From NCBI GenBank assembly GCA_051294375.1, contig CM119269.1, positions 18,526,471 to 18,590,470 of the forward strand: DNA of 64,000 nt. Direction: 5' to 3'. The stretch comes from Paraspadella gotoi. Taxonomy: Eukaryota > Animalia > Chaetognatha. Under the pieces are notes generated by a model. That model was not told the DNA's origin, did not search any database, and saw only the letters and a list, made by a program, of their open reading frames with translations. Numbering within the stretch: the stretch's first letter is position 1; every line of letters starts with the position of its first letter. Of the stretch, positions 11,363-43,753 are shown one piece after another. Position numbers and translations under genes: made by a program.

Positions 11363-14300
11363 TTAGGTATATTGGAGATCACTACTAGGTTTGTCTAGTA
11401 ACGGCACATGAAAAGAAGACGGTGGATTAACAGGCGACTCAAGCTGACGAGATGATCCGCTGGGGTAGAAAAAATATATAAGAATTTTAACTCTTATAAT
11501 AATAATTAATTCATCTGTTTTATGCAAGTAGTGAAAAGATACATTTTTTTCACATAGAATTTGTTGTCTTATGAGAGAAAATTGAAATTTACTCACTTTG
11601 AAAATTTTCCGACATCATCTTTGTTGAATCCTGAAGTTGTAGATTTGATTTTTTTTCGTTTTATTTCGACAATGATAAAAATAGATAAAATTAAATCAGG
11701 TTACCCGAATTCCTCTTGGGACTATGTCCCGGCGTTTCATCTGTGTAGTGAGGGGCGACGTACAAATCGTCGCTGAATTCGTCTTCGTCGCGTAAATCTT
11801 CCTCTGTTGAAAATAAACAAATACTTTGGGCTGAAATTCTTAAAAAACGCCTCACCGATTTGAATTTAAAATTTTAACCAAATGCAGCAAAAACTTCTAA
11901 CAATTTATCAAAACCCCCACAATCTACAACGGATATAAGAATTTTCTTCGTATTGAAATTAGGCAATTACGCAGAGAAAAGAATTTGTGATTTGTTGCTG
12001 TCCCTTTCGATCTAGATGCCGTGTCAACGCCCCCTCACCCGTTAGAGTAATCTTGTCAATGCTGTTGAGGCCCCTGACACGCACGCCGGTCCCGGCTTCC
12101 TGATCGAGGGGCGCGTAGCGGTGAACCCCGAAACAGAGCCAGCCGTGGGACCAAGATTGGAGAAGGAGGAAGACGAGGAGAGGGAGGACGATGATGAGGA
12201 CGACGAGGATCGTCACGAGATCCGCAAAGACGGATGTGGAAACTGCGTAAGACTCTGTTTTCATTTCTATATCGTCGACGCATACCAGAACTGGAAGGGG
12301 GGTCGGAGTAAAGGAGAGAGGGAGGGCGAGTGGAAGAAGTCGAAGAAGAAGAAGGGAATATGAAAGAAGGGCGAGAGGGAAAGCGTATGGGGGAAAAAGG
12401 AAAAGAAGGGCGTCGAAATTTAGACTTGCCTGATGAGACGAAGAAAGCCAGTCACCCATCACTGAGTTGGTCGGTTCGTTTCTCTACGTCTTTCGCTACT
12501 TTGTGATAATTTTTCTGATAATTTCTGTGCCGAGACAATCTCGATAATCTAAAAATTATCTACAAGACGTCCTTTTTGATATCGTTTATGATAAATTTAT
12601 GTTTTCTGAATTGAATCGAATTGTGTAAACCATCTCAGAAAGGATTCGGAATCTAAGACATTCGTTATGTGTGACAGTTCAAAAGAAAATAAAATAAAGA
12701 TAAAAGATAGACCGTCATAAAAAATAATTTAGGGTGCGCAGTAACAAAAAATTGTAAGCTCACTGCAAAAATACGCCGAATTTATTAATGAATCATTTAT
12801 TTTTCTCTCGGTTGTTATCATAATCATTTGTCAAGAGAAAAAATCGACAAATATATCGTGGAGTTAGGGAAACAAATCAAACCAAAAACTGTGTTTGGAT
12901 GACTGGAAATTATCTTTTGATTTCATGTATGTATAAAATTTTATTGTATACGAGTATATTATTCCCCCAAATTTTCTCGCTTGATCAGTAAAAACAAAAT
13001 GCTTCCTTACGAGTAATTTTCAAACGGTTATGTTTCAAAATATTTTTGGTTATAATGAAGATAAAGGCAACGGAAAAACACGGGAGGGGCCCGACAGGGT
13101 CAAACCCTTTATTTTCAAGAGTCCACCGGTCCACCCCCCCTCAAAATTAGGGCCGCCGGGCAGAGAGGCGACGGGACGGGACGCTTTTGGAGCGGACCCT
13201 CAGCCCGAAATTCTTGAGGAGATGCCGCAGCCACTTGCGAAAAACTGACTTCTTGACCATGAGTTTCTCGCAATGGCTAGTGCTAATCCGCGTGTATCGG
13301 TACGTATGGAAGGGGGAAGGGGGACGACGGGAGTGGAGAGAGAAGCGGGTAGATCGGGCGGACCGTTTCGCCGCCTCATAGAAACGGCCGGCGCGCCGAT
13401 AGGCTGAGCGAGAGCGAGAGGGATGTCAAAGGGGAGAGAACGAGGAAGCGCGGGAAGACTCTCTCTTAGAAGGCTATATAGCGACATTTTGTTTCTTTTT
13501 CGTCAAAAAATTTGTTAAAAAATTTATATAAGGCCTAATTTGCCCATTCGAACCGAACAACTTTGAAGAATGTTGTCTCACCTTTTTCTCTCGATTTTTT
13601 GCAAACGCAGCATGCGTCTTTGTCGCTAGATTTGGGGTCGCAGCAGGGAATGCACTTTGAAGTGGGACGATGCAGGGCGAAAGGGCCCGGTTGACAGGTC
13701 ACGCAGTTTCCGGGACCCGGGCCTTTACAAGTCAGGCACGAAATGTCGCACTTCTTGCATCCGCCCTGGAAATTAGTTTCAGAAAGTAGGAATTGGAGCA
13801 TAGGACAATACTTTGAGAACATAAGTAACGAACGAAACGTACAGATGACTATGTGCAAGAGAATTAAGATAGGAGGAAAAGCCTGAGTGAACCCGGAGCC
13901 TGCAGTTTAAAAAAAAAAAAATTTTTACCTTTTCTAATTTGTAAAATCCGATGCCGCATTCGCCGGGGAAGCAGACACCGCGGTCTCCGAGAAGCATGTG
14001 TCCGTTGTAGCAGGACGTGCAGTCGGAGTCGGACCCAGGGAAAGCGCATTCCATGCAGGAAGGGTGGCACTCGTTGCATTCGTTCTAAAGGAATGAATTT
14101 TAAAATTAATCTTTACTTGCCACATCGTTTCCTTATATTCAGGACTTTCTCTCACCTTATTGGGCCGAAGATAAGTGCTCTTCGGACACTTTTGTAGACA
14201 CTTGCCCTTGTGAAGCACCGTGGCGTCCGGGCAAGAGAGACAGTCGACGAACTGAGGCCCCTTGCACGTTAAGCAGGAAGAGTGGCAGGCCGAGCAGATT

Positions 14301-17300
14301 CCCCCTTGTAAGGGATCCAGAAATTGGCTGAGAAGGGAAAAAAGTAAAATGCGACGTAGAAAATAAATTTTAACTTGTGATAAAAGGTTTACCCATCTAT
14401 CGACCGTCGTTTCAGTTTGACTTACCCGCTCCCGCATTCCAAAGCTACGCAACCCTGCTGAATCAATTTCCACCCTTTCGGACATTGGGTGCAATCTCTA
14501 GCTCGGGGTCCCGAACACGACACACAGGGAATGGGGGATTGGGAGCAGGGAAGGCAATGTCCCCGCGACGCGTAAAAACCTGCGCCAAAGTTTTAGTTTT
14601 AAAAATATATATTAATTTATATACAATTTTACATTATATATTATTAATAAAATAAAATATAATATAATTAATAAAATATATATTAATTTATATACAATTT
14701 TACATTATACATTATTTATTTTACACTATTGTATTTCTCTTTCGATCCACTTCTTTACTCCCTCGTCAATCGTTTTCCTCTCATTCGTCGCTTTTTCTTT
14801 TGTTTGAAAAATATACATAAGAGATATCTAAGAGATTTCTTTCGCTTTTTCCTGGGCTACATATTTTATATATATACCTTTATCACAGTTGGCAACGCAA
14901 GTTGTGCGATTCTGCAGTAGACGATTTTTGGAGCACGACAGACAGTCGTTGGCCATAGGCCCGGTGCACCCAGAGCAAGACCCGTGGCAAGAAAGGCATT
15001 CTCCCGGACCCGCGCCCCCTAACGAGGCCCCAGAGCGGCTCAGATCTAGGTAAGTACCTGTCATAAGAATAACAAAAATTCTTTTTCACAAACGTTATGT
15101 TAAAGTCAAAACGACTGATCGCTTCCCATCTTTCTTACCCTGCGGACATGAGTCGAATTCCCTGGAGACGCAATCATTATCGGATAAGTAATAACTTTCG
15201 ATGCAAGAGGTACACATGGTAGGCGACCCGGAACAGTTTCGGCAAGGAGCGGCACAAGGCATACATTGTTGATATTGGTCTACGAGCGGAAAAAAATAAA
15301 ACAAATAAAAAATTTGTAGACTAAAACCCTGTGAAGAGGGATTAGAGATAAAAAAAAAAAAAAAAGGAAGAATTACTCGACTCCCTTACTACTTTCTACC
15401 CATATTCCCAATCCCTTCAGAAACGATTGAATTTCTTTTCAAAATCTTTAGATGATCCTATGTATACTATACAAAAAAGTTAACATGTCCGTAGTTTAAA
15501 AAGAACAGAAAACTGACCGATAAATAGGCTAAAGAGACGGGGGGGGGGGATGTATGAATTACGAAATAAGTGAAATAATCTTCTCTTAAGGCACAAACGA
15601 AATGGGGGGGTGGAGGGGGGGGGGAAAGCGTTTAAAATCTTTCGTCCGGACCTTCCGACTGCAACGGCAATTTCCGGTTAAGCTTTATTTCTCGTTCATC
15701 ACGGAGACCACTTTCTCTTTCGTTTGAGCCCCTTATCATCGCCGTACACTTCCTGCTCCTCAAGATTCTCCGTCTCTGTCAGAATCCCTTCCAACTCTGT
15801 CATTTCAAATCTTTTATCTATGGTCGCGCAAGTTCCGTTCTCTGCTGGATGATGTCATGAGGTTGGAGGGAGTTTCAAGGGAGGGGAGGAGATTTTTTTT
15901 TTTCCAGCACGCGATGTAGTAAGTAGTATAGTGGTACTTAGTATAGTATTACTTCTCATTTCCTAACGCATTTATTGTTACCCAGGAATGAGTTGTCGGG
16001 ACATTCGAGGCAATCGTTCTGGTTGGGTCCGCGACAGGTGGCGCAGCTGTAATGGCAACCGTAACAGATGCTGAAATTTCTTCCCTCCACCGTAGAGTTT
16101 CGAGTAAAATGGTTTACCCCGCAGTTTGAAACGCAAGGACTAGAGTTAAGGAAAAGAAGGTGAAACGACAGAAATGAATGAAGGGTCTCCCCTTAAAGTT
16201 CAAAAAAGCATGAACGAGTCAGTCGTTAGTACCCCTTATCGCCGAGACGAACGTGTTTGCAGGCGTAACACCCGCTGGCGCTGGAGTCGTGACAGCGGTC
16301 AAGGCACTCGGAGTGACAAGAGGGGGAAGATACTTCGGTAGGAAGGACTGAGACACCGCTCGTTGCGCCGCTGGTGACGTCGCTGGACACGAGAGGCGAG
16401 GGCGAAGTTTCTCCGCCACGGAGTTGGATGTGATGCTCGTCCTCCTCCTCAAAAGATAACATAAGGCCGTTTTTTTATAATTTTATAACTCATACATAAC
16501 AAATTAATTATTCGTGGGATTTACCATGACTATACTCCTGTCGTTATCGTCGCCACCAAGAGCGTGGAGCGGATCACTTTTCGTTCCGTAGAGCACCAGT
16601 CTCCAACTGGTCAAAGTCCCTGGATAGAAGAAAAAAAAAAACATCACGGTTATATTTTCCATCATTTAAATATTTTGAAGAAAATTCCATGACGAAGAAT
16701 AATTACGTAGTTACACCATGAATTACTCACCAATGTTCTTGGACTGCGGGTGTGTAATTTCCAAAGTCCACTTTCCGTTGGGGTCTTCCCCCCAACAGTG
16801 AACCGTGAGAAACAACCAGGCCATGAGTTTCTTCTTCCGGTCACGCGGTCGGAACGGCAGCAGGGTCGAAGTCGTCTTTTGCGGCGATGTCAGCTTAATC
16901 ATTAGCTTTCCGCGATCGGGAAACTCCAGCGTAACCTCGGCCTGTGCGTGTGCGAGAGAGAAAGAGAGAGAGAAAATTTAAAATAAAAGCACATACAATT
17001 TTTTTTTAAACAAGTTTGAGCAAACAATGCCGGTTCTGCCCACCATCATTAGCGGTAAGCAGCTGATCAGATAATTAATTAATTAATTAATATTAATTTT
17101 TTTAGCGTCAAAATCGTTTTCCACTTTGTCTCGCCTCTCAATCACAAAACAACAATCTCGATCACAAAATTAATTATTAAATTAATTAATTAAAAAATAA
17201 TTAATTACTTATTTATCAATAATTATTTATAAATTAAAGAGAAAAAGCATAATCAAATAGTGAAATAGATTTCTTTGTTTTTTAAATTTTAACTTATTTC

Positions 17301-20300
17301 CACCTGGACGATTTCATTGAAACTTGATTTCCTGCTCAATCATACACTTTCCTACCCGCATACAAAAATTGAAGTCAATCGCCCCCTCCATTCATGAGTA
17401 ATTGGAGTTCAAAGCTAAGGGAGGACGGACGGACATCATTTTTTTTGCCTAATTTTCTATTATTCGATGTTCTAGGATGATATAAGTGACTTACCGACAA
17501 AAAAATGGGTGGTGAGTCTAGACCTTTCCATATATGAAATGTTTTGAAATCAAACAAGTTTGAACAATGTCGGATCTGCCTACGATAATTAAGTGGTAAT
17601 AAGCTAACTTGGTCAACTTGCATAATTTAATCAACTTGCATTATTTGGTCAACTGTCATAATTTTGTCAACTGACATAGTTTATTTGGTTAACTGATATA
17701 ATTTCTTCAACTGACATAATTTGGTCAACTGACATAATTTGGTCAACCGGCATAATTTGGTCAACTGGCATATTTTTGTCAATTGGCAATTTGGAATAAT
17801 TTGGTCAATCAATCAATCAGAGAGAGATAGAAAGAGAGAAACTTTAAAAAATTCAAATAAGTGTGTCTACTGGTTTTCTAATTTGAACTCTTTTCTACTC
17901 CTACGATTCCATCAAAAAAATTATATCCAGCTTTATCACATACTTTCCTACCGACACACAGTATTCCATTTCAATTAATCTATCCAATTTTTAATAAACA
18001 TAATAATTATGAGAAAATTTAAGTAAAAATACTTCAAGTAATTATCTCTTGTTTTTTTCCATTTTAACTCATTTCCACTAGCACAATTCCATCAAAACTT
18101 TATATCCAGCTCAATCACACACTTTCCTACCATCATACAAAATTTCAAGTCAATTGCCCTATCCACTCATGAGCAATTGGCGTTCAAATAGTGAAATAGA
18201 TTTTTTTGTTTTTTCCATTTAAACCAATTTCCACTCGCACAATTCATCGAAACTTCATATCCATCTCAATCACAGTTTCCTACCCACACACAAAATTTCA
18301 AACCAATCCATCCATCCAATCACGAGTAATTGGAGTTTTTTGCTAAGGGTGGACGGACAGACGGACGGACATCTTTTTTTAATAATTTATCATAATTCAG
18401 GTTCTGATATGATAATGATTTACCGACAATATTTTGGGGTGGAACCGACGGACCGACAAAGTGAATTATAGAGTCGGAATCTGCTGATAAATAGATTCGT
18501 CAAAAAACGAGTATTGGGTAAAAGGTTCCCATACATCATATGAATTTTTTAAACATTAAAAAAAAAAAGGTTTAAAAAAAATTTTAATTTGTAAAAAAAC
18601 TAACCTAATTTATAATGCGAGGTATGTAACAGTCAAATTTTTCCGCTCTACATTCTACAAGATAGTTTGGGTTGGCAGCATTTACTATGAATTTTTTTAA
18701 AAAATGTTCACAAAATTCATATGATGTATGGGTACTATGGGTACCTTTTACACGGTAGAGCAGAGAGGATGTGAAAGAAACAAAAAAAGTGCCATCTCTG
18801 AAACCTATAAAATCTTAAAGTATACCCATGAGACACTTAATGTGGTAGGTCAGTAAAATTTGATAAAGGCAGGATTTATTTTAAATGCTAATTAAAGTTT
18901 TTGACATTTTTTTATAAAAAATTTTAAGTAGTTTAGTGAATATGCTTACAATTTAAATGTCTATAAGTCTATCATTATTTCAAAACTTTTTATATATGGA
19001 AAGGTCTAGTGGCGACCGATAGACCGACAAAGTGAATTATAGAGCCGAGGTCTGCTGGAAGCAGATCCGGCTAAAAATACTGCAGCAACAGCGACACCTG
19101 AACGTGTTCGAGGTATCGAATTCGGTTTCGCGTATCGATGACTGTCTCGAGCACCAACTTCCCATCCTTCGGGATCGTCTTCTCGTCCTGGTTGTAGTGA
19201 GAGATGAAGATCTGCTGGGTGGGCACCGTCTTCCAAGATTTGGCCAGCTTGACCATGGCGCCGGCGTCCATCAAGCCGAAGCCGAAAACGTGGCTCACTC
19301 TCCTTGGGATAAAGAAAGAAAGAAAAGAATGAAACTAGGTTTAACACACATTATTAAATATAAAATAAATCTATTATTTAAATTTAATACATATGTAAAA
19401 TAAAAAATCATTGATAAATATTTTTCCTAAGGAGAAAACTAGAAGGAAGTGAAAGTAGTGTACCTGCCAGCAGCGTTTGTAACCCAGTCCGTGGCGCCCC
19501 CTTCTAGTGGCGCCGCGTTAGAGGTAAGGACAACGATGTGCTGCATATCGCGCCAGGTTAGGTTCGGGTTCGCCTCGAGCGCCAAGGCGCAGAGTCCAGC
19601 GGCCAGCGGCGCAGAGGCCGACGTCCCGGTGTGCTGGAAAAAAGGAAGAGAAGAGAAGAGAAGAGAAGAGAAGAGAAGAGAAGAGAAGAGAAGAGAAGAT
19701 AATTTAACAATTCATCTCAAACTCCATACTGCTTCATTAATTCTTTACCTCCGTCGTGCATTTTCCGTGCAAGTCTGTGGACACGATCTTTTTCTCGTCC
19801 CGATCCCTCCCGCTCGAGTAGGTCGTCGCAAGCGTGGAGGCGCACTCCTCCAGGTACCAGGGTTTCTGGCCGTTCTGCGACGCCGATGACACGGAGAGAG
19901 TGTAGATGGAGTTGGTGTAGCCGTCGCAGGCACAGGAATCGAAGTCTCGCCCGCCGTTGCCTGAGGCCCACACAAAGATGGATCCCTTTCCGCCGCGACC
20001 CTTTGTGACGCCCTCCTCGAAGGAGCGCCGCGCCATCTTGCCCGGGCCGTCGACGACTTCGCCGTTGTCGTCGGGGCCCCAGGAGGCCGAGTAAATGTCG
20101 ACGTGCTGAGGTTGGAGGCTGAGGGATTTGGCTTCCACCGCGTCGTTCACGTCGCCGTCGAGCATGCGGACTCCTAGAACAAACAAAAAAATGAAAATGT
20201 CAAAAAGTTGGTCTGTTTTTTCTTTTCTTTTAATCCGAAGAATTAATGATACCTCCGATCTTGGCATCGTAAGCCACGCCCACGATGCAGACGTCGTTGT

Positions 20301-23300
20301 CGGCGATCGCGGCCACTTCGCCGGCGCAACGAGTCCCGTGTTTGTTTTCGTTATACGGGTCGTACCTGAGTCGCCAAATGAAAAACTGAACGTAAAGAAG
20401 TCTAAAATGGGTCATGATCAAATAGAGAGTCGTGAATCGAGAGTCCGAATAAAGTCAAACCTCGGCATGGGATCAGGGTCGTCGCCGTTGATGTCAATGG
20501 AGGCGACGGGATCATAATTTCTCATGAGGTCGCGGTGGTTGTGTTCAATCCCGTCGTCGAGGATCGTCACCACCACATTTTTGCCAGTGATGCCTAAGAC
20601 GGACAGGAGAGAAGTTTAGGCCATAAAACCTGATAAATAAGCCATTGTACTCCTCTTCTCTATCGGCAATAATTTAAAATAATTTTCTAATAAGATGCAT
20701 TCAATGACCTTTAAATGCCTTTTCTCCAGATTCCTTCGTGAATTTTTAAAATCGCTTTCCTTTTCCTTCCTTGCTATATTTTTTCAATCCTTCTTTCACG
20801 ACCCGGAAATCTCACCCATGGCCCAGGCTTCCCGGACTCTCATGTCGGATTTCTGGTGTCCACCCGAGTGCAGATACCACTGATCCTTCCAAAGTGGGTC
20901 GCTGTGGTCTTGAAAAGATGTGTCAATAGAAGATATTTCTCGCTTAACCCTTTTTTTAATGACTTGTTGCTCCGTCCACAAGACGCGGGGATCGCCCTCC
21001 AAAAGTGAATGGTGGTTCGGGGAAGGGTCAGCCGATCTACGAGCGATTCGGCGATGACGAAGGAGGTAAAAATCGGGGAGAGTTCCGACTTCGCCAAGGA
21101 AGTCCATCCCCCGACTTCTCGCCACTTCTTCGGCGACGGCGCGACCCCCGCGGACTTCCACGGCCCATTCGTTAGAGTATTCGTGCCCTAAGGGCGAAAA
21201 TTCGAGTTCTCATTATTTCATAGTTACATTTGTGTTGACTTTACACTAAAATTTTATTTTTTACAGTTTGAAAATACTTGGCTTAGTGAACAATATTTAC
21301 AGACAATACGACGTTATTAAAAATGAAACGCCTATTTAAAAGTTTCAACATTACCCACTGGCATTGTAATTGGCTTTGCAAGTAGAGTGGCTTTCGAAAA
21401 CTACGGCTGGGAAATAAGCCAATATTGTCTCATATGGCTTCCCGCACAACATTCTTATTTTATATTTCATTAGCTGCTTCTATATTTATATAACTGTCGA
21501 ATCAGTCACTGCCGATTAAAAGCGAAAAAGGATAATGCATAATATAATGTTATACTTGTATTGTTAAATCAGACTTCATTCGGTACAAGTAGTAAGTGGC
21601 AAAGGATTTCAAATAAACACGCGCTAAAACACGATTAAAAACAAATTGAAATTATGACCAGTAAAAATGAACATTTGATTCTCACAACGATCACCACGGT
21701 CGCCAAGGACTCTTCGATTTCACAGATGAGTCACATTTTTCCGAAGAAGACGAAAGTTTATGGGAAGCGGAACTCGATTCTTTCGACGTTTCCATTTCCG
21801 AACTGGAGTGACAATCGCTGACTTCGCTGCTGCTGCAAAACTGGCAAAAAGAATCGCAACCGTTGTTGTTGTCGTTGACGTTTCGCGTCTCCGTCACAGT
21901 CGCTGTCTTAGGCGTGCACTGATTCTGCTCCACTTTTATGATGATAATGTTGTTGGTGTTTGAAGTGATGCAGTTTTTCGGGGACTTGGAGGTTGCAGTT
22001 GTAACGCTGGGCTTGGCCGTCTCGAACGGAAGGTGGACCGGGGACATCCAGTGCTGCAGCGGAGTGTGCGTCGTGTCGATCTTTAGCGGGCGCTGAACGG
22101 AAGGAAGCGGTCTTGGCGGCAAACGGGGCGTCGATGTTTTCGGATGGGAAGACGAGAGGGGACGCAAAGGACTCGCGCTCTTGGGACTCTTGTGCTTGGG
22201 AGGGATGAAAGCCACGGGTTTTCCCTGCGGATGATTCATAGGGCGAAGTCTCTTTTGTTCCTGCTGCTCTGGCGGGTGAGGCGAGGACTTTCTTTTCCGG
22301 TTATCAGACTCGGGCTTCTCCGACGCAGTCCGGTTGGTGGGATCTTGCGGAGCGCAGGAGCGAAGGTGTTGCTTGACTCGGGATTGAAACTCAGAGTTGA
22401 CGTTTCCTTGCCGAACTTGGCTCGACATGAATTGATCGATGACTTGAATCCCTTCCACGTATCCCATGTAGTAGTTGGCCAGAACCTCAGGCTCCGACAT
22501 GGCCGCGTTAACGGCGGCGTTGTACTGCTTTAAGTAGTTGACAGTCAACTCGAGCAAATCGGCCTTTTCCAGTTTGGAATATCTGGAAGAGGCGTGATCT
22601 CGGGGATCTCGCTTGCAGATAGTTTGCACGACGACGTCGCGCAGTTCGCCCAGATGATTGTTAATTCTGGCTCGACGCTTCTTCTCCATCAAGGGTTTGT
22701 TGTTCACCATTTTGAGAGATTAAAGAAAATAATTGTATCGAGAATAAAATTTGAGTATTTTGCGAAATTGCTTCCCCGTTGAAAAAAATTATTGGCAAAA
22801 AAAAGAACGTAGGGCAGTTTTTTCGCGAAATGATTCTTCCCGGATCTCGCGGCCGTGTTTTATACCCAAACGGCCCCAGTTCCGAAGGGCCGGCCGGACC
22901 ATTGGTCTCGACGTCGCTATTCGGCGAACGACGTCCGCCCTCGCCGGCCGCCGTCGCAAAAGAGCAACGCGGAGACATCGAAAATTTCGTCGCTCTTCCC
23001 CGCCGCCGTTCGAGGAATCGTCGTCACCCAAATACCGTGCGCTTGGCAAGTGTCTTGGTTTGACGACGAAACTAGCGCTTTTTAACGCAATTATAGTTTA
23101 TTGTGCCCAAACAGATCGCCGCGCAACCTTTCATTTTCTAATTGTGCTAATGGTCTTAATCATACCAAGTACTGACTTACAACAACGTAAATACTTAACT
23201 TTAATAGAATAAGTTTAGAACAAATTTAGTTTTAGCCGTCATCTTTTAAAGGATGGAAAGAACATTTCCTCGCTTATCCAACTTTCCCACATTCCTAATT

Positions 23301-23483
23301 CTTCCCATATTTATGTTTCTGTTTTGATTTCCGTCCATAGAGGAAATCCATTTCACTCACACGTGGCCGTTCACGACAACGAGAAAGAGGAAGAGAGGAA
23401 TCCCCTACGTTTGCATGTGGCGGTTCACGACAACGGTGTGAGAGGGCGAGAGAATCCTTCCGATCACACGTGGCCCTTCACAA

Positions 23484-23526
<43 letters not shown>

Positions 23527-25108
23527 CGGCCGAATCAGCTGGGAAGCCGGGTCGGGTGGTTTCTAATTCTCAAAGCAAAACAGCCTTGACTTATGTGCCA
23601 TGGTGTTTGAAAGCTATTATCGGTAAACGGTCTTCAATTATAGTAACTTATAGATAAACTCATACAAAAATGTGAAGGACAAATGTATCTTTTTTTCTCA
23701 TCGTTTGCGTCCTCAAAAAAATATCGCTTTACGGTTCGTAGAATACAGGGCGAGGTCATTTAAGGTTCCAACATAAATTAATTAATTGCTTAAAAGGAAA
23801 GAAAAATATAATAGGAAAATTAGTTATGTAAACGTCGACAAAAGCACAGGTAGCATAATAGGTAAGAGATTATTCTCATAATGAAATTCACGGTGCTTAA
23901 TACCAAACAATTTTTTTCAAATAAAAATAAAGTTCAACAAATATGAGATAGAGATATCAAAAGTCAGAAAAATTAAACAAACTAAAAATTGACTAATAAT
24001 ATGCAATTATTTTTTTTATGGTTAATTTTCAGTTTTTCTCTCTTGCTGCTTTCCCACTGATAATAATAAACAATTTTTTGGGGGAAATATTTGAATAAAA
24101 ATTGAATCATATTACTTAGAATTTACATATAATCAAAATTATTCATACTAACACTTTAATATTTCAATGTAATTTTCATTCAAGTAATTTAAAATTCTGT
24201 TCACGACATAAAGGTGCCCCTATAGACCTTTCCCCTGCATGTATCCCCATCAGAACATACGATTTTACATGGTAGTCTTATCCCTATTGTTAAAAAAAAA
24301 ATCATATATAACTAAAAAAATTATCCATTCCCATCCCTTTCTGTTCAGCCTCTTAGATAATATAATCTTTCATTAATAACTTTTTAACAGGAATGACGTG
24401 TGATATCTATTAGTAAACTATGACAGATTATAGTCTAACCTTGTGTTGTATAGATGCTCCCTCTATTTCCAGAAGACAACACTGACCTCCCCCTCCCAAA
24501 ATGAGTTATTAGATATTATAAGCAAAAAATTTTAAAAAATAATAATATATATAATTAAATAATATAGATCAAAAATAAAATATTCATAAAATATAAAAAA
24601 TATAAGATAGTGAAACAAGTCATTTTGCAAATTTTCATAATCTATTAAGCAGAGAAAAATTTTAATGAACAGTCCTGGACCAATGAACATTTTTTAAGAA
24701 AAAAAAATTGTGGTAAAATTGTACCTTCACTGTTCAGGATCTTCCCAGTCGGTAATTTTTTTTTCACGTGTTATGAGCGTTAATGTCATTTTTTTTCGCG
24801 AAAAAAAAACAATGGATTCTCAAATATTACCATAACCACCCTTAACCAGTAACCACCCATACCGTAACCTTAACCATACTTTTTTCCCTTGTAATATAAA
24901 ACCCTGGTAATGATATATGCGAATAGAAAAATAATAATTTTTTTTTAATTTTATAATGACTTAAAAAAATTTAAATCCGCTAAAACATTTACGATTAATA
25001 CTAAAATTTAATTTTCTTACCATCAGTATCGGACGCCTGCGTTTGACCATTGCATACAAAGACGATAAATACATATAGGAAACTTGTGATGATGCTGAAA
25101 ATGTACAT
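11363..25108 (-). CDS. PCSK5: Furin-like proprotein convertase (Fur2/PCSK5 type), transmembrane isoform, multi-exon
   Basis: Signal-peptide exon at 25108-25021. Prodomain NEWAVEV...KKRVKR. S8 catalytic motifs VTILDDG (D), [13 protein letters not shown] (H), WASGNGG (N) and HTGTSASAP (S). P domain at ~19310-16570. Furin-like Cys-rich repeats at ~16330-13582. TM exon at ~12266-12039 carries YAPL. Acidic-cluster tail [13 protein letters not shown] at ~11805-11706. Stop at 11363. Confidence 0.9.
13147..13403 (-). CDS. Alternative terminal exon B of the convertase (basic tail, no TM)
   Basis: Polypyrimidine-CAG acceptor at 13404-13406. The frame is open for 85 codons in phase 1, matching the donor at 13582 ([10 protein letters not shown]...RRLSARRP*). 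AATAAA at 13108-13113 on the minus strand. Confidence 0.6.
15699..15844 (-). CDS. Alternative terminal exon A of the convertase (short soluble isoform)
   Basis: CAG acceptor at 15845-15847. Phase 1 matches the upstream donor (SFL G|gt). Encodes [13 protein letters not shown]...KRKRKWSP*, with AATAAA about 10 nt after the stop. Confidence 0.6.
17552..18506 (-). mobile_element. Second family-1 Helentron/DINE-like copy with an internal 18-bp minisatellite
   Basis: Same termini as the 17009 and 37085 copies. (CATAATTTGGTCAACTGA)n at ~17605-17810 and a GGAC/AGAC microsatellite at ~18350-18370. Confidence 0.65.
18519..18750. mobile_element. Short MITE
   Basis: Inverted termini TAAAAGGTTCCCATACATCATATGAATTTT and AAAATTCATATGATGTATGGGTAC...CTTTTA. 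Confidence 0.6.
21691..22710 (-). CDS. HES: Hairy/Enhancer-of-split (HES) bHLH-Orange repressor, intronless coding region
   Basis: Basic region [13 protein letters not shown] with the diagnostic Pro, [15 protein letters not shown] helix 2, Orange domain ([16 protein letters not shown]...HL) and a C-terminal WRPW Groucho-binding motif. Confidence 0.95.
   Translation of the reverse strand: MVNNKPLMEKKRRARINNHLGELRDVVVQTICKRDPRDHASSRYSKLEKADLLELTVNYLKQYNAAVNAAMSEPEVLANYYMGYVEGIQVIDQFMSSQVRQGNVNSEFQSRVKQHLRSCAPQDPTNRTASEKPESDNRKRKSSPHPPEQQEQKRLRPMNHPQGKPVAFIPPKHKSPKSASPLRPLSSSHPKTSTPRLPPRPLPSVQRPLKIDTTHTPLQHWMSPVHLPFETAKPSVTTATSKSPKNCITSNTNNIIIIKVEQNQCTPKTATVTETRNVNDNNNGCDSFCQFCSSSEVSDCHSSSEMETSKESSSASHKLSSSSEKCDSSVKSKSPWRPW
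22858..23545 (-). promoter_or_regulatory. Putative HES promoter/enhancer: TATA, CCAAT, tandem CSL/Su(H) sites and CACGTG boxes
   Basis: Minus strand has TATAAAA at 22858-22864, CCAAT near 22901-22905, TGTGGGAA at 23284-23291 and TATGGGAA at 23302-23309. CACGTG occurs at ~23360 and ~23467 within a three-fold repeated motif. CAGCTG at ~23536. Confidence 0.55.
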
Positions 25109-25500
25109 CCTCGCGAGGAAGAGTCAGGAGATTATTCAACATGGAAGCGATGCATTTACAATTTGGAAGCGGGATCCCGTTTTAAAGGGACTCAGCGAAT
25201 GTTCATGTTATCATCGTCTTGTTTTGATCCAAAATAAATTCGGGGGGTCTACCTGAGGTGTTTAGCTAAAGAAAGTAATCAACGTACAGATTGCCATATC
25301 GATCTACAAAATATATATCCGACTCCAAGTGGAGAAAAAAAAATGAGATTTTGTTAGGAACAAAAAAAAATCTAGCTATTTTTTTTTTAATCGTATAGGT
25401 CAGTTTGTGCAAATTTAATCCAGTCGACCAATTTAAAGAAATTAGTTTTTTTTCTCGATAAATATTAAATACGAATTTATCAAAAGAACCGGAGCTTTTC

Positions 25501-27731
25501 TCAATCCAAATCCCCGTCGATTTCCTTCGCTTCTCCGTTTTGGGCTTGGAGTTTTCTCAAGCGCCGACGACGAAGTTCATTGGCGTCTTCGTCGGTTTTG
25601 GCCTCGGAATTGTCGTCGATCTTTTCGTCGGTCTTGGCTTTCTGATCGTCATTTGTGTCGACCGATTTATCGTCACTCTTTTCATCGGTGGGCGCTGCCT
25701 CGGGATTCTCGGACCTCTGGGAGCGAATCTTGGGGACGGCGCCTGTCGACGGCGTCGGCGCTTCGAGGCGCGGAGACGAAGAGCCTTCCGTAGTCGTCGT
25801 ATTTGTTGTTGTGACCTCTGCACCCACAGATGACGTCGTCGAGGTCGAAGTAACTGTCGAGGTTGTAGTAGTTGTGACAGTCGCCGCTGTAGTCACCGCA
25901 GCCTCCGCTTCAACGCCCGCACCATGTTCGGCAACCCCAGCGGAGGCGGCGGCATTGACAGTGGATGGAGCGGCACTCGCCAGGCTCACATACTGGTTCA
26001 TCTGGATCATAGCTGCATCCAGCAAGGTCTGGATGCCGCGAAGTACACGAATTCGCGCCTCGACGCGCCCGCGGTCGTCTCCCTCTAGAGCGCGTAGCTC
26101 TTCGTCAGAGAGGCCGGCGAAATCGGTCGGAGGAAGAGGAGGCGGAAGGGGGAAAGGCGGGGGAGGCAGGAGGTGGAAAGGAGGAAAGCTTGGAATCGAT
26201 CCATCCGCGGAGGCGGCGGTGGACGGCGGTGGCGGAGGAGGAAAGACGAAGCCTGGAGGTGGAGGAAAGGGCGGCGGTGGGAAGCCTGTCGAAAAGTAAA
26301 ATATGTTTCGATTTTTGTTTATTTGTCTTGGGGGCAGGGAAAAAAAGCACTTTACCCGGCGGAAGAACCCACGGCGCGTTCGGTGCGTTTTGCATCCCGT
26401 TCCTCTGACCAGCGTTGGGAGCATTGGGTGCGTCACCCCCGGCTCCGACGTTGTTGACCGGTGCGTCAGGCTCGGCTGCTGGGGGCGCCCCTCTTTGCCC
26501 GACGTCCCCGGCGCCGTTAGCGTTTCGCCTCCCAGCGCCAGCGTTGCGCAAAATATCAATGCGGCACGTCGGACAAGTCTGCTGTCGCTGGAACCAGGAC
26601 CGAAGGCAACTGGCGTGAAAAATATGTCCGCATGGGAGCTTCTTGGCAAAGCCAGCACCGGAGCCACCGGCAGGGGCTGCGCCAGGCGTCGCTCCTTGCA
26701 TCTCTTCCCGACAGATGATACAGACGTTGTCAGAGGACTCCAGGTCGGCCGCCGTGGCGTCCGGGTAGAGGGTGTTCATGTTGCGAATGGCGCGTCGCGA
26801 CATGATCACGTCATGCACGGCCTTTTTGAAGGCGCGAGCGGTGAGGTACATGGGCCGAATGGCAAAAAGTGGGAGGGTGTGAACCTTTACCATGATGGCC
26901 ATAAAAAGTAGGTAGAGAACGACTTTGGCGAATCCCAGGAGAAGTTCGGTGTAGAGGAGGTAGACCGACTTGCTCTCCCATGGGTTCTCGCTGCGAGAGT
27001 CGATTGCGTGGAGCACGTAACGGACGGCCACCATCAGCACGACGGTGAGCAGTATGGCATACTCGAAGCCGAAGACCAGCTGGACCGAAGCGCCCTTGAT
27101 CAAAGTGCTGTAGTAGGCGTGGTGCACGAAGAAAGAGTCAAGCAGCCCCAGAAGAACGAGGAGCATGGTGACGCGGAGGTGAAAAAGGAGGGTGATCGCC
27201 GGGGAGCGCTCCATGAAATCCACGCGGTCCTCCACCAGCCAATGAAAGCATTTGAGGAAGAGAAGAATCGTAAAGAGGGCGATGAAACGAGGGGAGAAGT
27301 CGTCTCTGGGCGGGGAGCACCGGGAGAAGAAGAGTATTATAAATTTTGTTTTTAATAATATTCTTTATAAAAAATGACACGATAATATGTGTTAGGTAAT
27401 TAAATTTACGTCTTTCTAAAAAAAAATTAATGTTCCATTTGTCCCACCTAAAAACTGTGAAGGCCAGGCAAGTTTCGGTGACGGCATACCACGACCGCTC
27501 GATGAGGTGCTCCGTCTCGGCGGCACGCAATTGACCGAAGAAGACCTTGCGCATGAGTTTCCCGAAGAGAACGACGAGGATCAAGGCTTGGAGATACATG
27601 ATGGCCATGCTCGGGTTCGACTTGGTGATGTAGACCACCGACGGGTAAAACTGTTCCTTTCTGTAGAAAGCGTTGCCGATGACGCCGAGCGTCAGCGCGA
27701 AGCTTACGCCCGCGATCGCGTCGATTCGCAT
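25501..27731 (-). CDS. SYVN1: E3 ubiquitin ligase synoviolin/HRD1, 3 exons
   Basis: Exons 27731-27448, 27305-26356 and 26285-25501. Motifs QFYPSVVYITKSNPSMA, WYAVTETCLAFTVFRDDF, RING-H2 CIICREEM...KKLPCGHIFHASCLRSWFQRQQTCPTCR, Pro-rich tract, LSDEELRALEG...LLDAAMIQMNQY and C-terminal ELRRRRL. Confidence 0.96.
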
Positions 27732-28467
27732 GACGAGAGTTTTTTATTCGGTTTGACTATAAAAAGAAATATATAAATAAGGCTTTATGAAGAATACGTT
27801 TTTAGATATGATTGGAGAGTGGAGACTCGAACCAGTAAGCGGCAAGACTTCTTTATGCACATAGTATAAAGAGTAAATAATGATCGATTCAACGGAAAAG
27901 ACGGTCGAGTTTCGCACAGCGGAAGCGACGGAAAGTTTAAAAACTACTAACACGAAAATCTATATCACAGGAATAAAAACAATACGAGTATTACAACATT
28001 AGTTATTTTCTGAACTTGTTGGGAAACTCGCAGCTGCTAAATTTGGTATTACCTAGCGTTTAAATTTTTTTCCCACACTTTAAAACATCCGTAAAGATCC
28101 TACACCTTCAAATCACCATTATTTAATCAACTCCATTGTAGACAAAGTATTTTCGTTGGAACAATTTAAAGGCCACTCACAATCGCACTTAGTCTTAGGG
28201 TCAGTTCGTAAATGAAAAATAACGTGCCGGCGCAAGACTTTTTTAAACTCAGTTAAACAAAACTAAGGTTCCTTAGTTTTCAAAAATTTACCTATAACAT
28301 TAACTAAAAAGAAAAGTATACCGTTCGTATAATTACCAAATAATGATTACAGTAAATTCATCGAAACTCACGTACTATAGTAATAATAGTATATTAATTG
28401 TTAAACATTGAAGACGAGCACTTCACTATTTTCTCCACACGGCAGGGGAACATCATGAACATTGTAA

Positions 28468-31400
28468 CTATCTCATCAAGGAGCTCCTCTTAATCGTCTC
28501 AGTAATAGGTTTCCTCGGGTGAATGAACACCTTCATGGTTCCCTTGAAGTCCGCCGTGACTAGGGCGTCGCCGAATTCTTCCCGCCTGTCGAGGCTGCTG
28601 CCCTTCGAGTCACCGGAGCCGGCCGTGGCGGACTTGGTCCGGTGGTTTGAAGGCTCGGCGGCGGCGTTCGCGGCGTCGTCAAAGGCTGCGAGCGGGTCGT
28701 GGGGGTCGTCCTCAACGCAGGCGTCGACTGCGGCCTTGATGAGGAGGATGGGGTGCGGGGCGAAGACGGCGCATGTGACCACGTCGGCGTGGCTCCTGAT
28801 CACCTCGAAATAGTCATTTTTGTCGCGTCGTGCGGCCGACGCCAGTTTGTAGACCTCGTTAAAAGTTTTCCAAATGTAGACGCCCTTATCTTCGGAGCCG
28901 CTGATAACATAGCGGCCCGAGGGAGAAAAGGAGGCTTTGATCTGGGAGGAGAGGTTCGTGGCGCCTTTGAACTTGCAAGTGAGCGAGGCGTCGTTGAGAT
29001 CGTAGAGCCGTACCCTGAAAACGGAGAGAGGTCTTCAAATCGGCAAAAAAATCTTAAAGTATAGTGATCTCGCCAGATGTTTCTATCAAAGAAAATTAAT
29101 GAAAAAATATGAAAAATTAAAAAAAACGAATGATTGATCCGATAACGAATTATTGATATAATAGTAATTGATTGATAGATGTAATAGTAATTGATTGATA
29201 GATGTAATAGTAATTGATTGATTGATTTAATAGTAATTGATTGATTGATTTAATAGTAATTGATTGATTGATGTAATAGTAATTGATTGATTGATATAAT
29301 AGTAATTGATTGATTGATGTAATAGTAATTAATTGATTGATCCGATGAGAACCAAAAGATTGATGCAATGATAACCAAATGATTGATGCAATGATAACCA
29401 AATGATTGATTGATAAAGAAAAAAAAAATAATAATCCACGAAAAAAAAAAAAATAATAATAATGGCGATAATAAAAGTTTTTAAAGGGAAAAAATTAATC
29501 AGAGAGAGAGAGAGAGAGAAAGAAGCCAAATCATTTTCAGCAGCAGAGGCACCCAGAAAAAAAAGAAAGAAATCAAAAGGCAGCAGCAGAAGCACTAGGA
29601 GAAAAGAGAGAAAAAGAAAGAGCCCCTGCAGAGCCAGCTGTAGACTCAAAAGGCAGCAGCAGAAGCAGCAAGAGAAAAGAGAGAAAAAGAATAAGCCCCT
29701 GCAGAGCCAGCTGCAGACTCGTTTTTTTCCCCTATGATTATGAATCAGTGACTAGGGAAAAGACAGAGGGAGAGAGACATGTAATTAAAAGAGAAAAGAG
29801 AGAGAGAGAGAAATATGAAAATAAAAGAGAGAAAATTTGTTTGTTTTGATAAAACGCAAACAAAACATATTTAATAACTGTCCAGACTCAATTATAAGCA
29901 CATCGATGATGAGAAGCTATAGATAAATTTTATTTAAGGCGATCTATAATTTGGAACGCCGACGACGACGAGTACGCCACTTATGCGCAAAAGAGTTACA
30001 ATATCGTCGCAAACGCTCAGCGATTGCGTGGATAAAAAAAACTAACAATTCAATGGTCAATGTTCATGTGAGTGAGGTGAAATGGGCAGTAAACTTTATC
30101 GTCGTTGTCAATATTGTGGTCGTTTGTTATTGTTGTTGTCATTGTCACTTGAGCTGCTTCAACATTAACAATATTTATACCGGACTTCTCCTAGTTTGTA
30201 ACCTGATCCGCCTTAATCATATTTTATGTTCAAGTTATTAGATATTTGCTATTTTTATTCAATCAATGCTAAAGATGAAAATGAGATACAAATGATTTTT
30301 TTTTTAAACCTGGAATCGTTCGATGACACGAGAACCTTCTTGTCGTCACCCGGCATCGAGACGATCCCCGTGATCTTTTTGCCTTTGTTCTTCCCCCGAG
30401 TTGATTTGACGTGAATGACAGTGTGATACTTCAGCTGGTCTGTGTAGAATACGCAACGTCCGTCGTAGGTTCCGACCACGCAGAGTTTACCACTGTCACA
30501 AAAATTAGCGGTCGTGATCAGGCGGCGCTGCCCCTCGACCTCGTTCCAAAGGGCCACCTTCTTGTCCGGAATGTTCCACAGGCGGAGCTTTCCATCGAGT
30601 GAGCCGCTGAGAAAGTATCGATCGTCCTTGGGATGAAAGGCGATGGCGGTAACGAAATCAACGTGCTGAAAGCAACAGAGGCACTCCTTTCGCGAGACGT
30701 GCCACAAACGGACCGTCTTGTCCATGGAGGCGGAAAGGAGAAAATAGTTCTTTGACCAGGAAATGTCAAGGAGATCGGCCCCGTGACCGCGATACTCGAC
30801 GAAGGCTTTTGGCATGAAGACGCACTCTTCGTCCTCGTCGACGAGATCGAGTCCACCGAAGGAGGCCGCCTCCGCTCCCAAACCCATCTCCAGCTGCTTC
30901 ATTTCCTCCGTCAGCGAAGCGAGGCTCACGTGAGAAGCAGAGGGCGACTGTCGGTTATCCTGATTGAATCTCTGCTTCATCTCATCAAAGTAAGGAAACG
31001 AGTCACGAAGGACCCATATGCGAAGAATATTGTCCTGGCCGCCGGTGGCCAGGAGCCGACCGCAGTGGCTGAACTTCATGGCCCAGACGGGGCCCGTGGC
31101 TCCATGCGACCCACGGTTTCCCAGAGTCTGTACCTCGTGCAGGTTGGGAAAGTTGACATGGGAAGACCTGTGTTTAACTTCGACCCGAACTTCAATGCCC
31201 TTTTTCGGAACGGGCATGCCGAGCAGCTTGTTCTGATTAGCTTGCTGCTGCTGTTGTTGACCACCGCTGCTTCCTGTCTGGCTCTTCCGCTTTTTGCCGT
31301 GGTGATTGTTTCCGTTGCGATTCTCCTCGGCGAGAGGTTGGCGATCTACTGAAGTCGCCACCGACGGCGTTGCGGACTGGGACGACGCGTCTCCGCCCCG

Positions 31401-32981
31401 CGGTTTCTTAATTTTGTCCGTGAGATCACCGAAAAACTGCTTGACGCCTTTGGTTTTTTTCTGATCCGCCTCGACATTAATCGACGGCGGTGGCGGACGG
31501 GGTGGTTTGGCCGCCCCTCCAGCGACTGACTCTACGACGCGCCATTTAAACGCCCTGGTCGATGCAGTCGTCGTCGTCGTTCCACCGGAAGAGACCGTCG
31601 ACACGGAACCGCAATCAGAATCGTCAGAATCGCCGAAGTCGTCGGCGCGTTCCTGAATTACGTAATAAAAATCGGAAGGAGTTGAGAATAAATAAATAAT
31701 TTTTTCATGTTGTGAAAATTTATTATCGCATGATTAATAAAACGGAAATAGAACATTAATGCTACTTTTTAATACAGCATAAAAAATCAAAAGCAATTAG
31801 ATTAGGGCAACCCATCCCATCCAATGCACCTGAATGAGTTGGCTGAGCGGGTTCTGATCGGCCGAGAGACGTTTGTCGATCTCACTGAGCGGGATCATCT
31901 CTCCTGTGTCGATGTCACGGAACAAAGGAATGGCACCGATCTCCGCGTCGGTTAACTCGGAGCCCGTCGTCGACATTCCATGCATGGCGGCGTGGCGGAC
32001 GGCCTCTTCGCCCTTGGGCGCGGCAGACGGCGGCGGCGGCTGAGAGGGCCGGCTGGGCTTGCCCCTCTTCGGCTGCTGCTGCTGCTGCGGCTGCAACAAA
32101 TGTTCGAGGCCGACACCGATCGACTTTGGACGAGACTCCGTGTCGGTCTCCGTTACCCGCAGTCGCTCGTCGTCTACGGCGTGGACTACGAGTTGTTCGT
32201 CGGCAGACTTTCGGGACTTATCACTTAAGGCTGCGTTGCCTCCACCGTTTAGTCGCTTTTCTCGTTTTGATCTCCGTGGAGGTGCCACTGGCGTCGTGCC
32301 GATCAGGACCTCGGCGTCTCCACGCGGGGTTTGAGATCGAAGAGAAGTCGATGGCGCGGATTGTCGCGTTGAAAGAACCAAATCCGGTGGCGGCGGCGCA
32401 GGCGGTGGACACTGGGGAAAGTTCGAAGGTGGCGATTCGGGCGGAGAAGCTTCGATGACATCTTCGAGCGCGGTTGAGATGCTGGCGGGCGAGGAGAGAG
32501 CCTCGGCGTCGAGCGGCGTGCTGGTCGCGGCGGACAAGAAGCTGAGTTGCGCTTCGGAAGCCGGAGTCGAAACGACGGCGACGAAATTAGGAGCCGCTCC
32601 CGTCGTTGGGGAAGACGTGGGGGTCAGAACGTCAGGAAGTGATGAAGACAGAACGTCGAGTTCTTCCGTTAAGCCCTTCCGGACGTCGTCGTCCTCGATT
32701 TCTTCATCCTCCGCCTTCTCGTCGTCCGCGTTCGCGTTCTCTTCATCCCGACTCTCCGAGGCCATCAAACGGCGGGCGAACGCTAGCTTCTCCTGCCGGC
32801 TCCGTTGTTGCAGCATTTCTTCACCGTTTTCCGCCTCAGCGCCGCCTTCCGACGTACTTTCTTTTTCTTTGACATTACAAAGTTTGATAGTATCCACGTC
32901 GGCGTTGACGTCCACACCCTCTTCACCCAGAGCGTCGTAAAACTCCTCATGATCAGAGCATTCGTCTCTTTCTTCGCTCAT
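28468..32981 (-). CDS. WDR44: WD repeat protein 44 (Rab11-binding protein), 3 coding exons
   Basis: Exons 32981-31830, 31652-30310 and 29014-28468. N-terminal FFAT-like DHEEFYDA, DIDTGEMIPLS, and WD40 repeats (VWAMKFSHCGRLLATGGQD, LSASMDKTVRLWH, FQHVDFVTAIAFHPKDDRYFLSGSLDGKLRLW, LVSSNDSRVRLYD, QIKASFS). Confidence 0.94.
29150..29412. repeat. Intronic minisatellite, ~23-27 bp units (GATTGATGTAATAGTAATTGATT)
   Basis: Tandem units are directly visible. Confidence 0.9.

Positions 32982-39149: not shown

Positions 39150-43753
<4,604 letters not shown>

What the first reader, a model, noticed from the sequence alone, without database searches (positions are those of the whole stretch)
21189..25108. 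HES gene nested on the same strand inside intron 1 of a furin-like convertase
Seen: the convertase prodomain exon (..[11 protein letters not shown]) has a phase-1 acceptor and no signal peptide. The best upstream match I found is the exon at 25108-25021 ([21 protein letters not shown]...D G|gtaag), which has a hydrophobic signal and a phase-1 donor. The complete intronless HES gene, with its own TATA box and CSL-type sites, lies between them. Established: same-strand nesting is much rarer than antisense nesting, furin-type convertases perform Notch S1 cleavage, and HES genes are Notch targets. Inference: HES transcription or its poly(A) site could interfere with or couple to convertase expression, giving a cis-linked Notch feedback unit.
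Basis: partly seen in the sequence, partly recalled or inferred. Interest (0 to 1): 0.78.

Follow-up and report, generated by a model that had tools for sequence, protein, structure and literature searches.

The report
HES gene inside an operon's convertase
RNA shows that an intronless HES repressor gene sits on the same strand inside the first intron of a furin-family protease gene, which is likely the last gene of a housekeeping operon; this is likely an ordinary nested gene, and the proposed Notch feedback link is unsupported.

Summary
The nesting is real. An RNA assembly joins exon 25108-25021 to the prodomain exon at 21187 across a 3,833-nt GT-AG intron that holds the whole 339-aa intronless HES gene. 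The 21-exon convertase model is one open 1,217-aa frame. (1) The convertase has almost no room for its own promoter. Its RNA starts 13 nt after the HRD1 RNA ends, right behind a splice acceptor, with 5 non-genomic letters; HRD1 starts at an acceptor 75 nt after a WD40 gene. This likely is an operon cut by spliced-leader trans-splicing, known in arrow worms; earlier unchecked scan notes found such operons elsewhere in this genome. (2) Close HES relatives (81-94% identical) appear to carry three introns that this copy lacks, fitting known selection against splice sites in same-strand nested genes. The Notch-feedback idea is unsupported: CSL sites are not enriched or paired, the host is likely constitutive, and same-strand single-exon nesting is common. 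Leader letters, HES strand and start site, and synteny were not seen. Interest 0.35.

The parts
25021..25252 (-). Convertase exon 1: 144-nt 5' UTR plus 88 coding nt (ATG 25108, hydrophobic signal-peptide-like segment, phase-1 donor)
   Evidence: RNA contig 25020-25252 with 5 unmatched letters at its 5' end; hydropathy
21188..25020 (-). Convertase intron 1, 3,833 nt, the longest of 20 introns (median 126 nt)
   Evidence: Spliced joint, GT..AG; intron sizes of the model
20816..21187 (-). Convertase exon 2: S8 prodomain and RVKR cleavage site
   Evidence: Pfam S8_pro-domain E 4.9e-24; joint; model
11363..20593 (-). Convertase exons 3-21: subtilase domain (Asp, His, Asn, Ser motifs intact), P domain, about 8 Cys-rich repeats, transmembrane helix, cytosolic tail
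   Evidence: Model by splice sites, one open frame of 1,217 aa, 60-61% identical over full length to P0251 and P0365; only introns 1, 3 and 4 seen as RNA joints, introns 2 and 6 as loose ends; Pfam; PDB furin E 8e-64
21691..22710 (-). Intronless HES ORF, 339 aa: bHLH with basic-region proline, degenerate Orange domain, C-terminal WRPW
   Evidence: unspliced RNA contig 21619-23112
22858..22864 (-). TATA box of the predicted HES promoter
   Evidence: Sequence; function not tested
22828..22833 (-). Initiator-like hexamer, predicted start about 22831, 33 nt after the TATA
   Evidence: the consensus is recalled; the RNA contig runs about 280 nt further upstream
23284..23308 (-). Two CSL-like sites in the same orientation, not a head-to-head pair
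23345..23488 (-). Three copies of a 25-37 nt element spaced 53-54 nt apart, each with an E-box (two CACGTG, one CACATG); candidate HES enhancer
   Evidence: Family D2; 2 exact pattern matches in the window, 0 in 100 shuffles, none elsewhere in the window, pattern taken from these copies
21253..21258 (-). Only canonical AATAAA downstream of HES: about 430 nt after the stop and about 65 nt before the convertase acceptor; weaker variants lie at 21580-21464
25253..25265 (-). 13-nt spacer between the HRD1 RNA end and the convertase RNA start, ending in AG; predicted trans-splice acceptor
25266..27757 (-). HRD1/synoviolin gene (CDS 27731-25501, 2 introns); its RNA starts at the G of a pyrimidine-rich AG acceptor and ends on an AG with no poly(A) hexamer nearby
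   Evidence: Pfam and homologs; joints and ends; model
27758..27832 (-). 75-nt spacer between the WD40 gene's RNA end and the HRD1 acceptor
27833..32981 (-). WD40-repeat gene (WDR44-like, name recalled), upstream cistron; an AG acceptor lies 15 nt before its ATG
24120..24950 (.). Dispersed-repeat fragments in the 5' half of intron 1, with many diverged RNA contigs from other loci
   Evidence: High depth, other letters and loose ends

Best explanation
An intronless HES repressor gene lies on the same strand inside spliced intron 1 of a furin-family convertase, likely runs from its own TATA promoter, and is likely a passive guest in a host that is likely the last gene of a housekeeping operon cut apart by spliced-leader trans-splicing. 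Shown: the splice across HES, the intact HES and convertase frames, RNA ends only 75 and 13 nt apart, and both downstream RNA starts at AG acceptors. Inferred: polymerase starts upstream of the WD40 gene and reads WD40 > HRD1 > convertase; a leader is added at 27756 and 25252; convertase exon 1 is cis-spliced over HES. HES survives there because it offers no splice sites (three introns apparent in close relatives are gone, by retroposition into the intron or by loss in place) and has only weak poly(A) signals, so the host transcript is neither mis-spliced nor cut. Any interference would more likely run from the constitutive host onto the HES promoter than the reverse.
For: Joint 25021>21187. 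Gaps and ends: the WD40 contig ends at 27833, HRD1 spans 27757-25266, the convertase starts at 25252 with 5 unmatched letters; all 8 pieces of the 6 records laid were shown. Only 44 of 1,115 positions in these spacers and UTRs follow an AG and 19 follow a pyrimidine-rich AG, yet both RNA starts sit at one: the convertase exactly, HRD1 one base inside. All 26 chaetognath leader forms in Table 3 of PMC2481426 share exactly their last 5 letters (TTAAA, by eye), matching the number of unmatched letters and a non-G letter before 25252. Gaps under 250 bp are the operon criterion in PMC12460157; a 3-nt gap is described in PMC2481426. Six unnamed environmental fragments 49-94% identical to HES in blastp begin or end at residues 43, 88/89 and about 148 with flanks that read like translated acceptors and donors, while the window is continuous there. 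Same-strand nested genes are mostly single-exon. No second 5' partner of exon 2 was listed, although an unspliced branch of depth 3 did break the contig at the donor.
Against: The leader letters were not displayed, so trans-splicing is not shown. The HRD1 contig starts one base inside the AG with no leader letters, which neither leader ending predicts exactly. No contig bridges either gap. One run from one study; contigs give no strand, start site or level. The HES contig (depth figure 6.55) starts 280 nt upstream of the predicted start and is only about twice an unspliced intron contig (2.96), in more GC-rich DNA (51% against 27%), so independent HES transcription is not proven. The relatives' introns are read from protein fragments, not from DNA, and two other relatives (P0398, P0429) have no break in the loop. 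HRD1 here also has few introns, so intron loss may be genome-wide. The arrow-worm identity rests on earlier unchecked notes; my trees only show a clade of unnamed environmental sequences. In one search, 122 pieces and 38 loose ends were not displayed.
Confidence: 0.6

Rival explanations
1. Cis-linked Notch feedback: Notch/CSL turns on HES, and HES transcription or polyadenylation throttles the host convertase that matures Notch.
For: The nesting is real. Two CSL-like sites and a triple E-box element lie upstream of HES. The only AATAAA lies 65 nt from the host acceptor. A tandem single-exon nested gene can disturb its host (KTI12/TXNDC12, PMC3192792 passages). Mammalian S1 cleavage depends on furin (PMC2726433 passages).
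Against: CSL sites are at chance frequency and unpaired. No truncated or intron-retaining host product reaching HES was listed. The host looks operonic. The catalytic and P-domain tree puts it nearer Fur2/PCSK6-like rows than Fur1 (SH-aLRT 86, quick tree, no vertebrate references). Fly Fur1/Fur2 RNAi left S1 cleavage unchanged. Nested fly genes tend to diverge in expression, not couple (PMC5174743 abstract). Hes genes are often Notch-independent.
Confidence: 0.07
2. No operon: the convertase has its own promoter overlapping the last exon and 3' UTR of HRD1, and the close RNA ends reflect a compact genome.
For: No bridging contig and no leader letters seen; the HRD1 5' end is off by one base.
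Against: Only 13 nt separate the RNA ends; both starts fall at AG acceptors (about 4% of positions each); 5 non-genomic letters lead the convertase contig.
Confidence: 0.12
3. HES has no independent transcript in this sample: the RNA over it is host pre-mRNA or excised intron, and the gene is silent or expressed only at other stages.
For: Low depth figure near the intron background, a 5' end upstream of the TATA, GC-rich sequence favouring capture.
Against: The contig forms an island around the ORF, and the 41%-GC stretch 23113-23476 next to it is barely covered. The ORF is intact and conserved with relatives up to 94%, so the gene is likely functional somewhere.
Confidence: 0.12
4. The HES promoter doubles as an internal operon promoter: read-through past the weak HES poly(A) signals meets the now unpaired acceptor at 21188, which receives a leader and yields a convertase mRNA without its signal peptide.
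For: Unpaired acceptors are the substrate of leader trans-splicing (PMC1488885 passages). HES lacks a strong nearby poly(A) signal. Several environmental relatives are called from a Met just inside the exon-2 equivalent.
Against: The contig over the 21187 acceptor is unbroken and carries only exon 1. The window protein has Ser where the relatives have that Met; the first in-frame Met lies well inside the prodomain. The relatives' starts may be gene-caller choices.
Confidence: 0.06

Closest known systems
Same-strand single-exon nested genes of Drosophila (PMC3814207 passages; PMC5174743 abstract)
   Same: Short single-exon guest in the host's longest, 5'-most intron, same strand; loss of guest introns fits selection against mis-splicing
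   Different: The guest is a developmental repressor with a developed promoter, and the host is likely a downstream operon gene
Human TXNDC12/KTI12 (PMC3192792 passages)
   Same: Tandem single-exon protein-coding gene in an early intron of a housekeeping-type host; interference shown in minigenes
   Different: No exonized or intron-retaining host product was seen here; no operon in human
Chaetognath leader-resolved operons: Spadella RPS14-PCNA (PMC2481426 section 12 and passages) and Paraspadella operons (PMC12460157 section 10 and passages)
   Same: Same-strand housekeeping genes a few to 75 nt apart, downstream RNA starting at an acceptor
   Different: Leader letters not seen here; a same-strand nested developmental gene inside an operon member is not mentioned in the passages read
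C. elegans operon CEOP3416 with nested F37C12.14 (PMC1657053 passage)
   Same: A gene nested in an intron of an operon member
   Different: That guest is on the opposite strand
Hes/E(spl) bHLH-Orange-WRPW repressors (PMC4172395 passages)
   Same: bHLH, Orange-like helix pair, WRPW
   Different: Platynereis Hes1-10 keep three conserved introns; this copy has none; its Orange domain is below Pfam's cut-off
Furin, PC5/6 and Fur2 proprotein convertases
   Same: Signal, prodomain, subtilase, P domain, Cys-rich repeats, transmembrane helix, acidic tail
   Different: About 8 Cys-rich repeats and the tree position suggest the Fur2/PC5-6 type rather than furin/Fur1; not settled

Membership tests
Same-strand nested (intronic) gene | Host exons on both sides are spliced together over the guest | tested here: met
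   Joint 25021>21187, 3,833 nt skipped
Same-strand nested (intronic) gene | Whole guest ORF inside one intron, same strand | tested here: met
   ORF 22710-21691 within 25020-21188
Same-strand nested (intronic) gene | Guest transcribed from its own promoter | tested here: inconclusive
   TATA and initiator-like motifs; island contig without strand or start
HES family | bHLH with proline in the basic region | tested here: met
   Pfam HLH E 1.5e-10; proline at residue 6 read from the sequence; homologs named HES, hairy, E(spl)
HES family | Orange domain | tested here: inconclusive
   Hairy_orange E 0.033, below cut-off, only when the segment is scanned alone
HES family | C-terminal WRPW | tested here: met
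Direct Notch-target HES | Paired or enriched CSL sites near the promoter | tested here: not met
   One strong site, no strict pair, window count at chance
Direct Notch-target HES | Expression depends on Notch | not testable with these tools
   No perturbation data
Kexin/furin-family convertase | Signal peptide, prodomain with basic cleavage site, catalytic Asp/His/Ser plus oxyanion Asn, P domain | tested here: met
   signal peptide by hydropathy and homologs only, no SignalP
Furin/Fur1 orthologue (as opposed to Fur2/PC5-6) | Groups with furin/Fur1 and has few Cys-rich repeats | tested here: inconclusive
   Groups away from insect Fur1 with support 86; 6 strict plus 2 by-eye repeats; vertebrate references missing; the Atlas did not discriminate for relative P0365
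Leader-resolved eukaryotic operon | Same-strand genes less than 250 bp apart | tested here: met
   75 and 13 nt between RNA contig ends
Leader-resolved eukaryotic operon | Downstream mRNA starts at an unpaired acceptor | tested here: met
   25252 directly after AG; 27757 within one base; no cis partner listed
Leader-resolved eukaryotic operon | Spliced-leader sequence on the downstream mRNA | tested here: inconclusive
   5 unmatched letters, not displayed; none on HRD1
Leader-resolved eukaryotic operon | Polycistronic precursor | tested here: inconclusive
   No bridging contig; contigs drop rare forms
Retrogene | Precise loss of the parent's introns | tested here: inconclusive
   Three inferred introns in relatives are absent here, but inferred from protein fragments only
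Retrogene | Intron-bearing parent elsewhere in the same genome, or the site empty in relatives | not testable with these tools
   No genome held; metagenome scans gave no locus of this clade

The most novel reading that the evidence does not exclude
A developmental repressor gene that shed its introns to live inside an operon acts as a switch on its host: when HES fires, read-through or its poly(A) site diverts the convertase away from its signal-peptide exon, by leader addition at the freed exon-2 acceptor or by premature cleavage, so HES induction lowers secretory convertase in cis, possibly closing a Notch loop.
Probability: 0.08. Interest if true: 0.75.

Novelty: new member of a known kind. 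Interest (0 to 1): 0.35.

Why it matters
As it stands this is a clean, RNA-confirmed case of a same-strand nested gene, with two useful extras. It is a natural test of the idea that same-strand guests must lose their introns, since close relatives seem to keep three. It also shows how a tightly regulated developmental gene can sit inside a constitutively read operon in a trans-splicing animal, where every unpaired acceptor is a risk. It would matter much more only if HES firing were shown to change host output.

Tried and rejected
No whole genome is held, so paralogs, a parent gene and leader RNA genes could not be sought. No holder on record as RNA was listed; X1 is treated as RNA because it shows GT-AG joints (4 of 6 joints, 2 of 2; the other 2 lie in repeat sequence). 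Uncovered parts of intron 1 (23397-24119) are not used as evidence on their own. Contig depths cannot rank genes, so the 60-fold gap between host and HES figures is not relied on. An alternative exon 1 inside the intron was rejected: 5 other candidates, none hydrophobic; one very short candidate near the acceptor seen by eye has no signal peptide. Synteny failed: the HES scan of metagenome contigs had 115 pattern matches and 0 relatives; the scan with relative P0252 gave 80 loci, none of this clade and none with a HES or HRD1 hit. Naming the lineage failed: HRD1 groups with 3 unnamed rows (support 99, quick tree of 57 rows, 56 picked from 120 hits) and the convertase with 6 unnamed rows (support 100, 26 picked from 120 hits); cluster look-ups gave no names for them. 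The Atlas gave only hits under 0.9 for HES. E(spl)-type 3' UTR boxes (K, GY, Brd; motifs recalled) were absent. Literature: searches for furin + Hes + nested + first intron + Notch S1, for intronless Hes evolution and for spliced leader + operon + Xenoturbella (an early guess at the organism, dropped) gave 0 papers; one search listed 7 papers and the one searched (10.1101/2025.01.31.635879, passages) had nothing on furin or hairy; one search listed 8 and one search listed 7, seen as listings except PMC1657053 and PMC4172395. The gene table of PMC12460157 (xlsx) was too large to read and may list this operon; its three readable supplements held no leader sequence or furin entry. Earlier scan notes had nothing near this place, on HES nesting, or in relatives.


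Full report
Observation. The minus strand carries, in order, a WD40 gene, HRD1/synoviolin, and a kexin/furin-family convertase. The prodomain exon begins at 21187 behind an AG at 21189-21188 and has no upstream Met in frame. Exon 25108-25021 ends in a phase-1 GT and joins it in frame. One public run, X1, holds 59% of the sampled words of 19400-26000. Laid on the window, it shows a contig that skips 3,833 nt from 25020 to 21188 with GT..AG ends. The nesting is therefore shown at RNA level, from one run of one study; the two other runs laid nothing. A 21-exon model built from canonical splice sites is one open frame of 1,217 aa and aligns end to end at 60-61% with two unnamed environmental proteins, whose hydrophobic N-termini match exon 1.

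The guest. The ORF 22710-21691 encodes a bHLH (Pfam E 1.5e-10), a weak Orange segment (E 0.033, under cut-off) and WRPW; database hits are HES, hairy and E(spl) proteins at about 30-60% identity. It has a TATA box at 22864, an initiator-like hexamer 33 nt later, two same-orientation CSL-like sites, and three copies of an E-box-containing element at 23345-23488. The CSL motif is not enriched (11 against 7.9 +/- 2.6) and not paired. One unspliced contig covers 21619-23112. It is an island, but its depth figure (6.55) is close to that of an unspliced intron contig (2.96), and it starts upstream of the predicted start, so independent transcription is likely but not shown. Downstream of the stop the only AATAAA lies 65 nt before the host acceptor.

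Intron loss. A search of 1.84 billion representatives returned 915 hits, 150 listed; eight short unnamed proteins among them are 55-94% identical to parts of this HES. Six of the eight start or stop where the likeness starts or stops, at residue 43, between 88 and 89, and near 148, with flanks that read like translated pyrimidine tracts and GT donors. I read them as single exons of close relatives with three introns; the window and its RNA contig are continuous at all three places. This is inference from protein, since the DNA could not be fetched. P0398 and the 51%-identical P0429 run through the loop without a break and seem to be another paralog; P0465 covers the C-terminal half. Either a processed copy landed in the intron, or a resident gene lost its introns; HRD1 here has only two introns, so general intron loss is also at work.

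The host is likely operonic. On 25000-29050 all 8 pieces of 6 records were displayed. The WD40 RNA ends at 27833. The HRD1 RNA starts at 27757, the G of a pyrimidine-rich AG, and ends at 25266. The convertase RNA starts at 25252, directly behind an AG, with 5 letters that are not in the genome. The gaps are 75 and 13 nt. In these spacers and UTRs 44 of 1,115 positions follow an AG. Chaetognath operons are defined by gaps under 250 bp and hold 18% of genes in Paraspadella (PMC12460157, passages and section 10); a 3-nt gap is described in Spadella (PMC2481426, passages and section 12). All 26 leader forms in that paper's table share exactly five terminal letters, which is what an assembly graph would leave where several leaders merge; this fits but does not prove, because the letters were not displayed and HRD1 shows none. 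No contig bridges a gap. Two earlier unchecked notes call this genome an arrow worm and one reports an operon elsewhere in it; my own trees only place HRD1 and the convertase with unnamed environmental rows.

Mechanism. Most likely one constitutive transcript runs WD40 > HRD1 > convertase, is cut by leader trans-splicing, and convertase exon 1 is cis-spliced over HES. HES likely uses its own promoter. It is tolerated because it presents no splice sites and only weak poly(A) signals. This matches Drosophila, where 29% of nested genes are same-strand and 72.5% of those are single-exon (PMC3814207 passages), and where nested pairs diverge in expression (PMC5174743 abstract); in mammals the two orientations are broadly similar in number (PMC11694760 passages). 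The RNA shows no sign of leakage: an unspliced branch of depth 3 broke the contig at the donor, while the contig over the exon-2 acceptor is unbroken and carries exon 1 only (122 pieces and 38 loose ends were not displayed, and contigs drop rare forms).

The Notch link. It needs HES to be a Notch target, the convertase to be the S1 enzyme, and HES to affect host output. None is shown. Hes genes are often Notch-independent (PMC4172395 passages). Mammalian S1 cleavage needs furin, but fly Fur1/Fur2 knockdown did not reduce it (PMC2726433 abstract and passages). This enzyme has about 8 Cys-rich repeats and falls nearer Fur2/PCSK6-like rows than Fur1 in a quick tree lacking vertebrate references. 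Operonic genes in Paraspadella are depleted of signalling and developmental roles. Interference by a tandem single-exon guest has precedent (TXNDC12/KTI12, PMC3192792 abstract and passages), so a weak effect cannot be excluded. A search for a furin-Hes nesting found no paper, which covers open-access texts only.

Verdict. Observation confirmed; interpretation partly supported. Each element is a known kind: same-strand single-exon nesting, leader-resolved operons (PMC7986045 background section; PMC1488885 passages), and a gene nested in an operon member (PMC1657053 passage, opposite strand). The combination with apparent recent intron loss is a neat test case. New member of a known kind, interest 0.35; the switch reading has probability about 0.08.

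Noticed in passing
window 23345-23488: Three spaced copies of a 25-37 nt element with an E-box, next to a (CT)n tract, unique in the window; it could be an autoregulatory or bHLH-driven enhancer of HES.
   Followed up: partly
window 25266-25267: The HRD1 RNA ends exactly on a second pyrimidine-rich AG with no poly(A) hexamer upstream, as in Ciona operons without intercistronic DNA; it may be an alternative trans-splice site.
   Followed up: partly
window 25109-25252: The convertase 5' UTR holds four upstream ATGs; one (25142) opens a 39-codon out-of-frame ORF overlapping the main start, a possible translational brake.
   Followed up: no
window 16525 and 15982 (donors of exons 9 and 11): Reading through these donors gives early stops; environmental relatives have about 600-aa, 750-800-aa and 1,200-aa forms, suggesting soluble and membrane isoforms.
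   Followed up: partly
window 26823-26852: A 133-nt contig shares 30 nt with HRD1 and then runs on into 103 unrelated AT-rich letters; probably another locus or a paralog fragment.
   Followed up: no
window 24120-24950: Repeat fragments in intron 1 attract many diverged, high-depth RNA contigs, pointing to an expressed dispersed repeat family.
   Followed up: no
P0367, P0372, P0373, P0378, P0380 and others: Many convertase relatives are called from a Met just after the exon 1/exon 2 junction and lack the signal peptide; a gene-caller choice or real exon-1-less transcripts.
   Followed up: no
   Followed up: no
window 37500-43800 (-) and 47900-52300 (+): A glycoside hydrolase family 3 gene, and a gene with 8 LDL-receptor class A repeats plus a trypsin domain preceded by a Lys/Glu-rich repeat ORF.
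   Followed up: no
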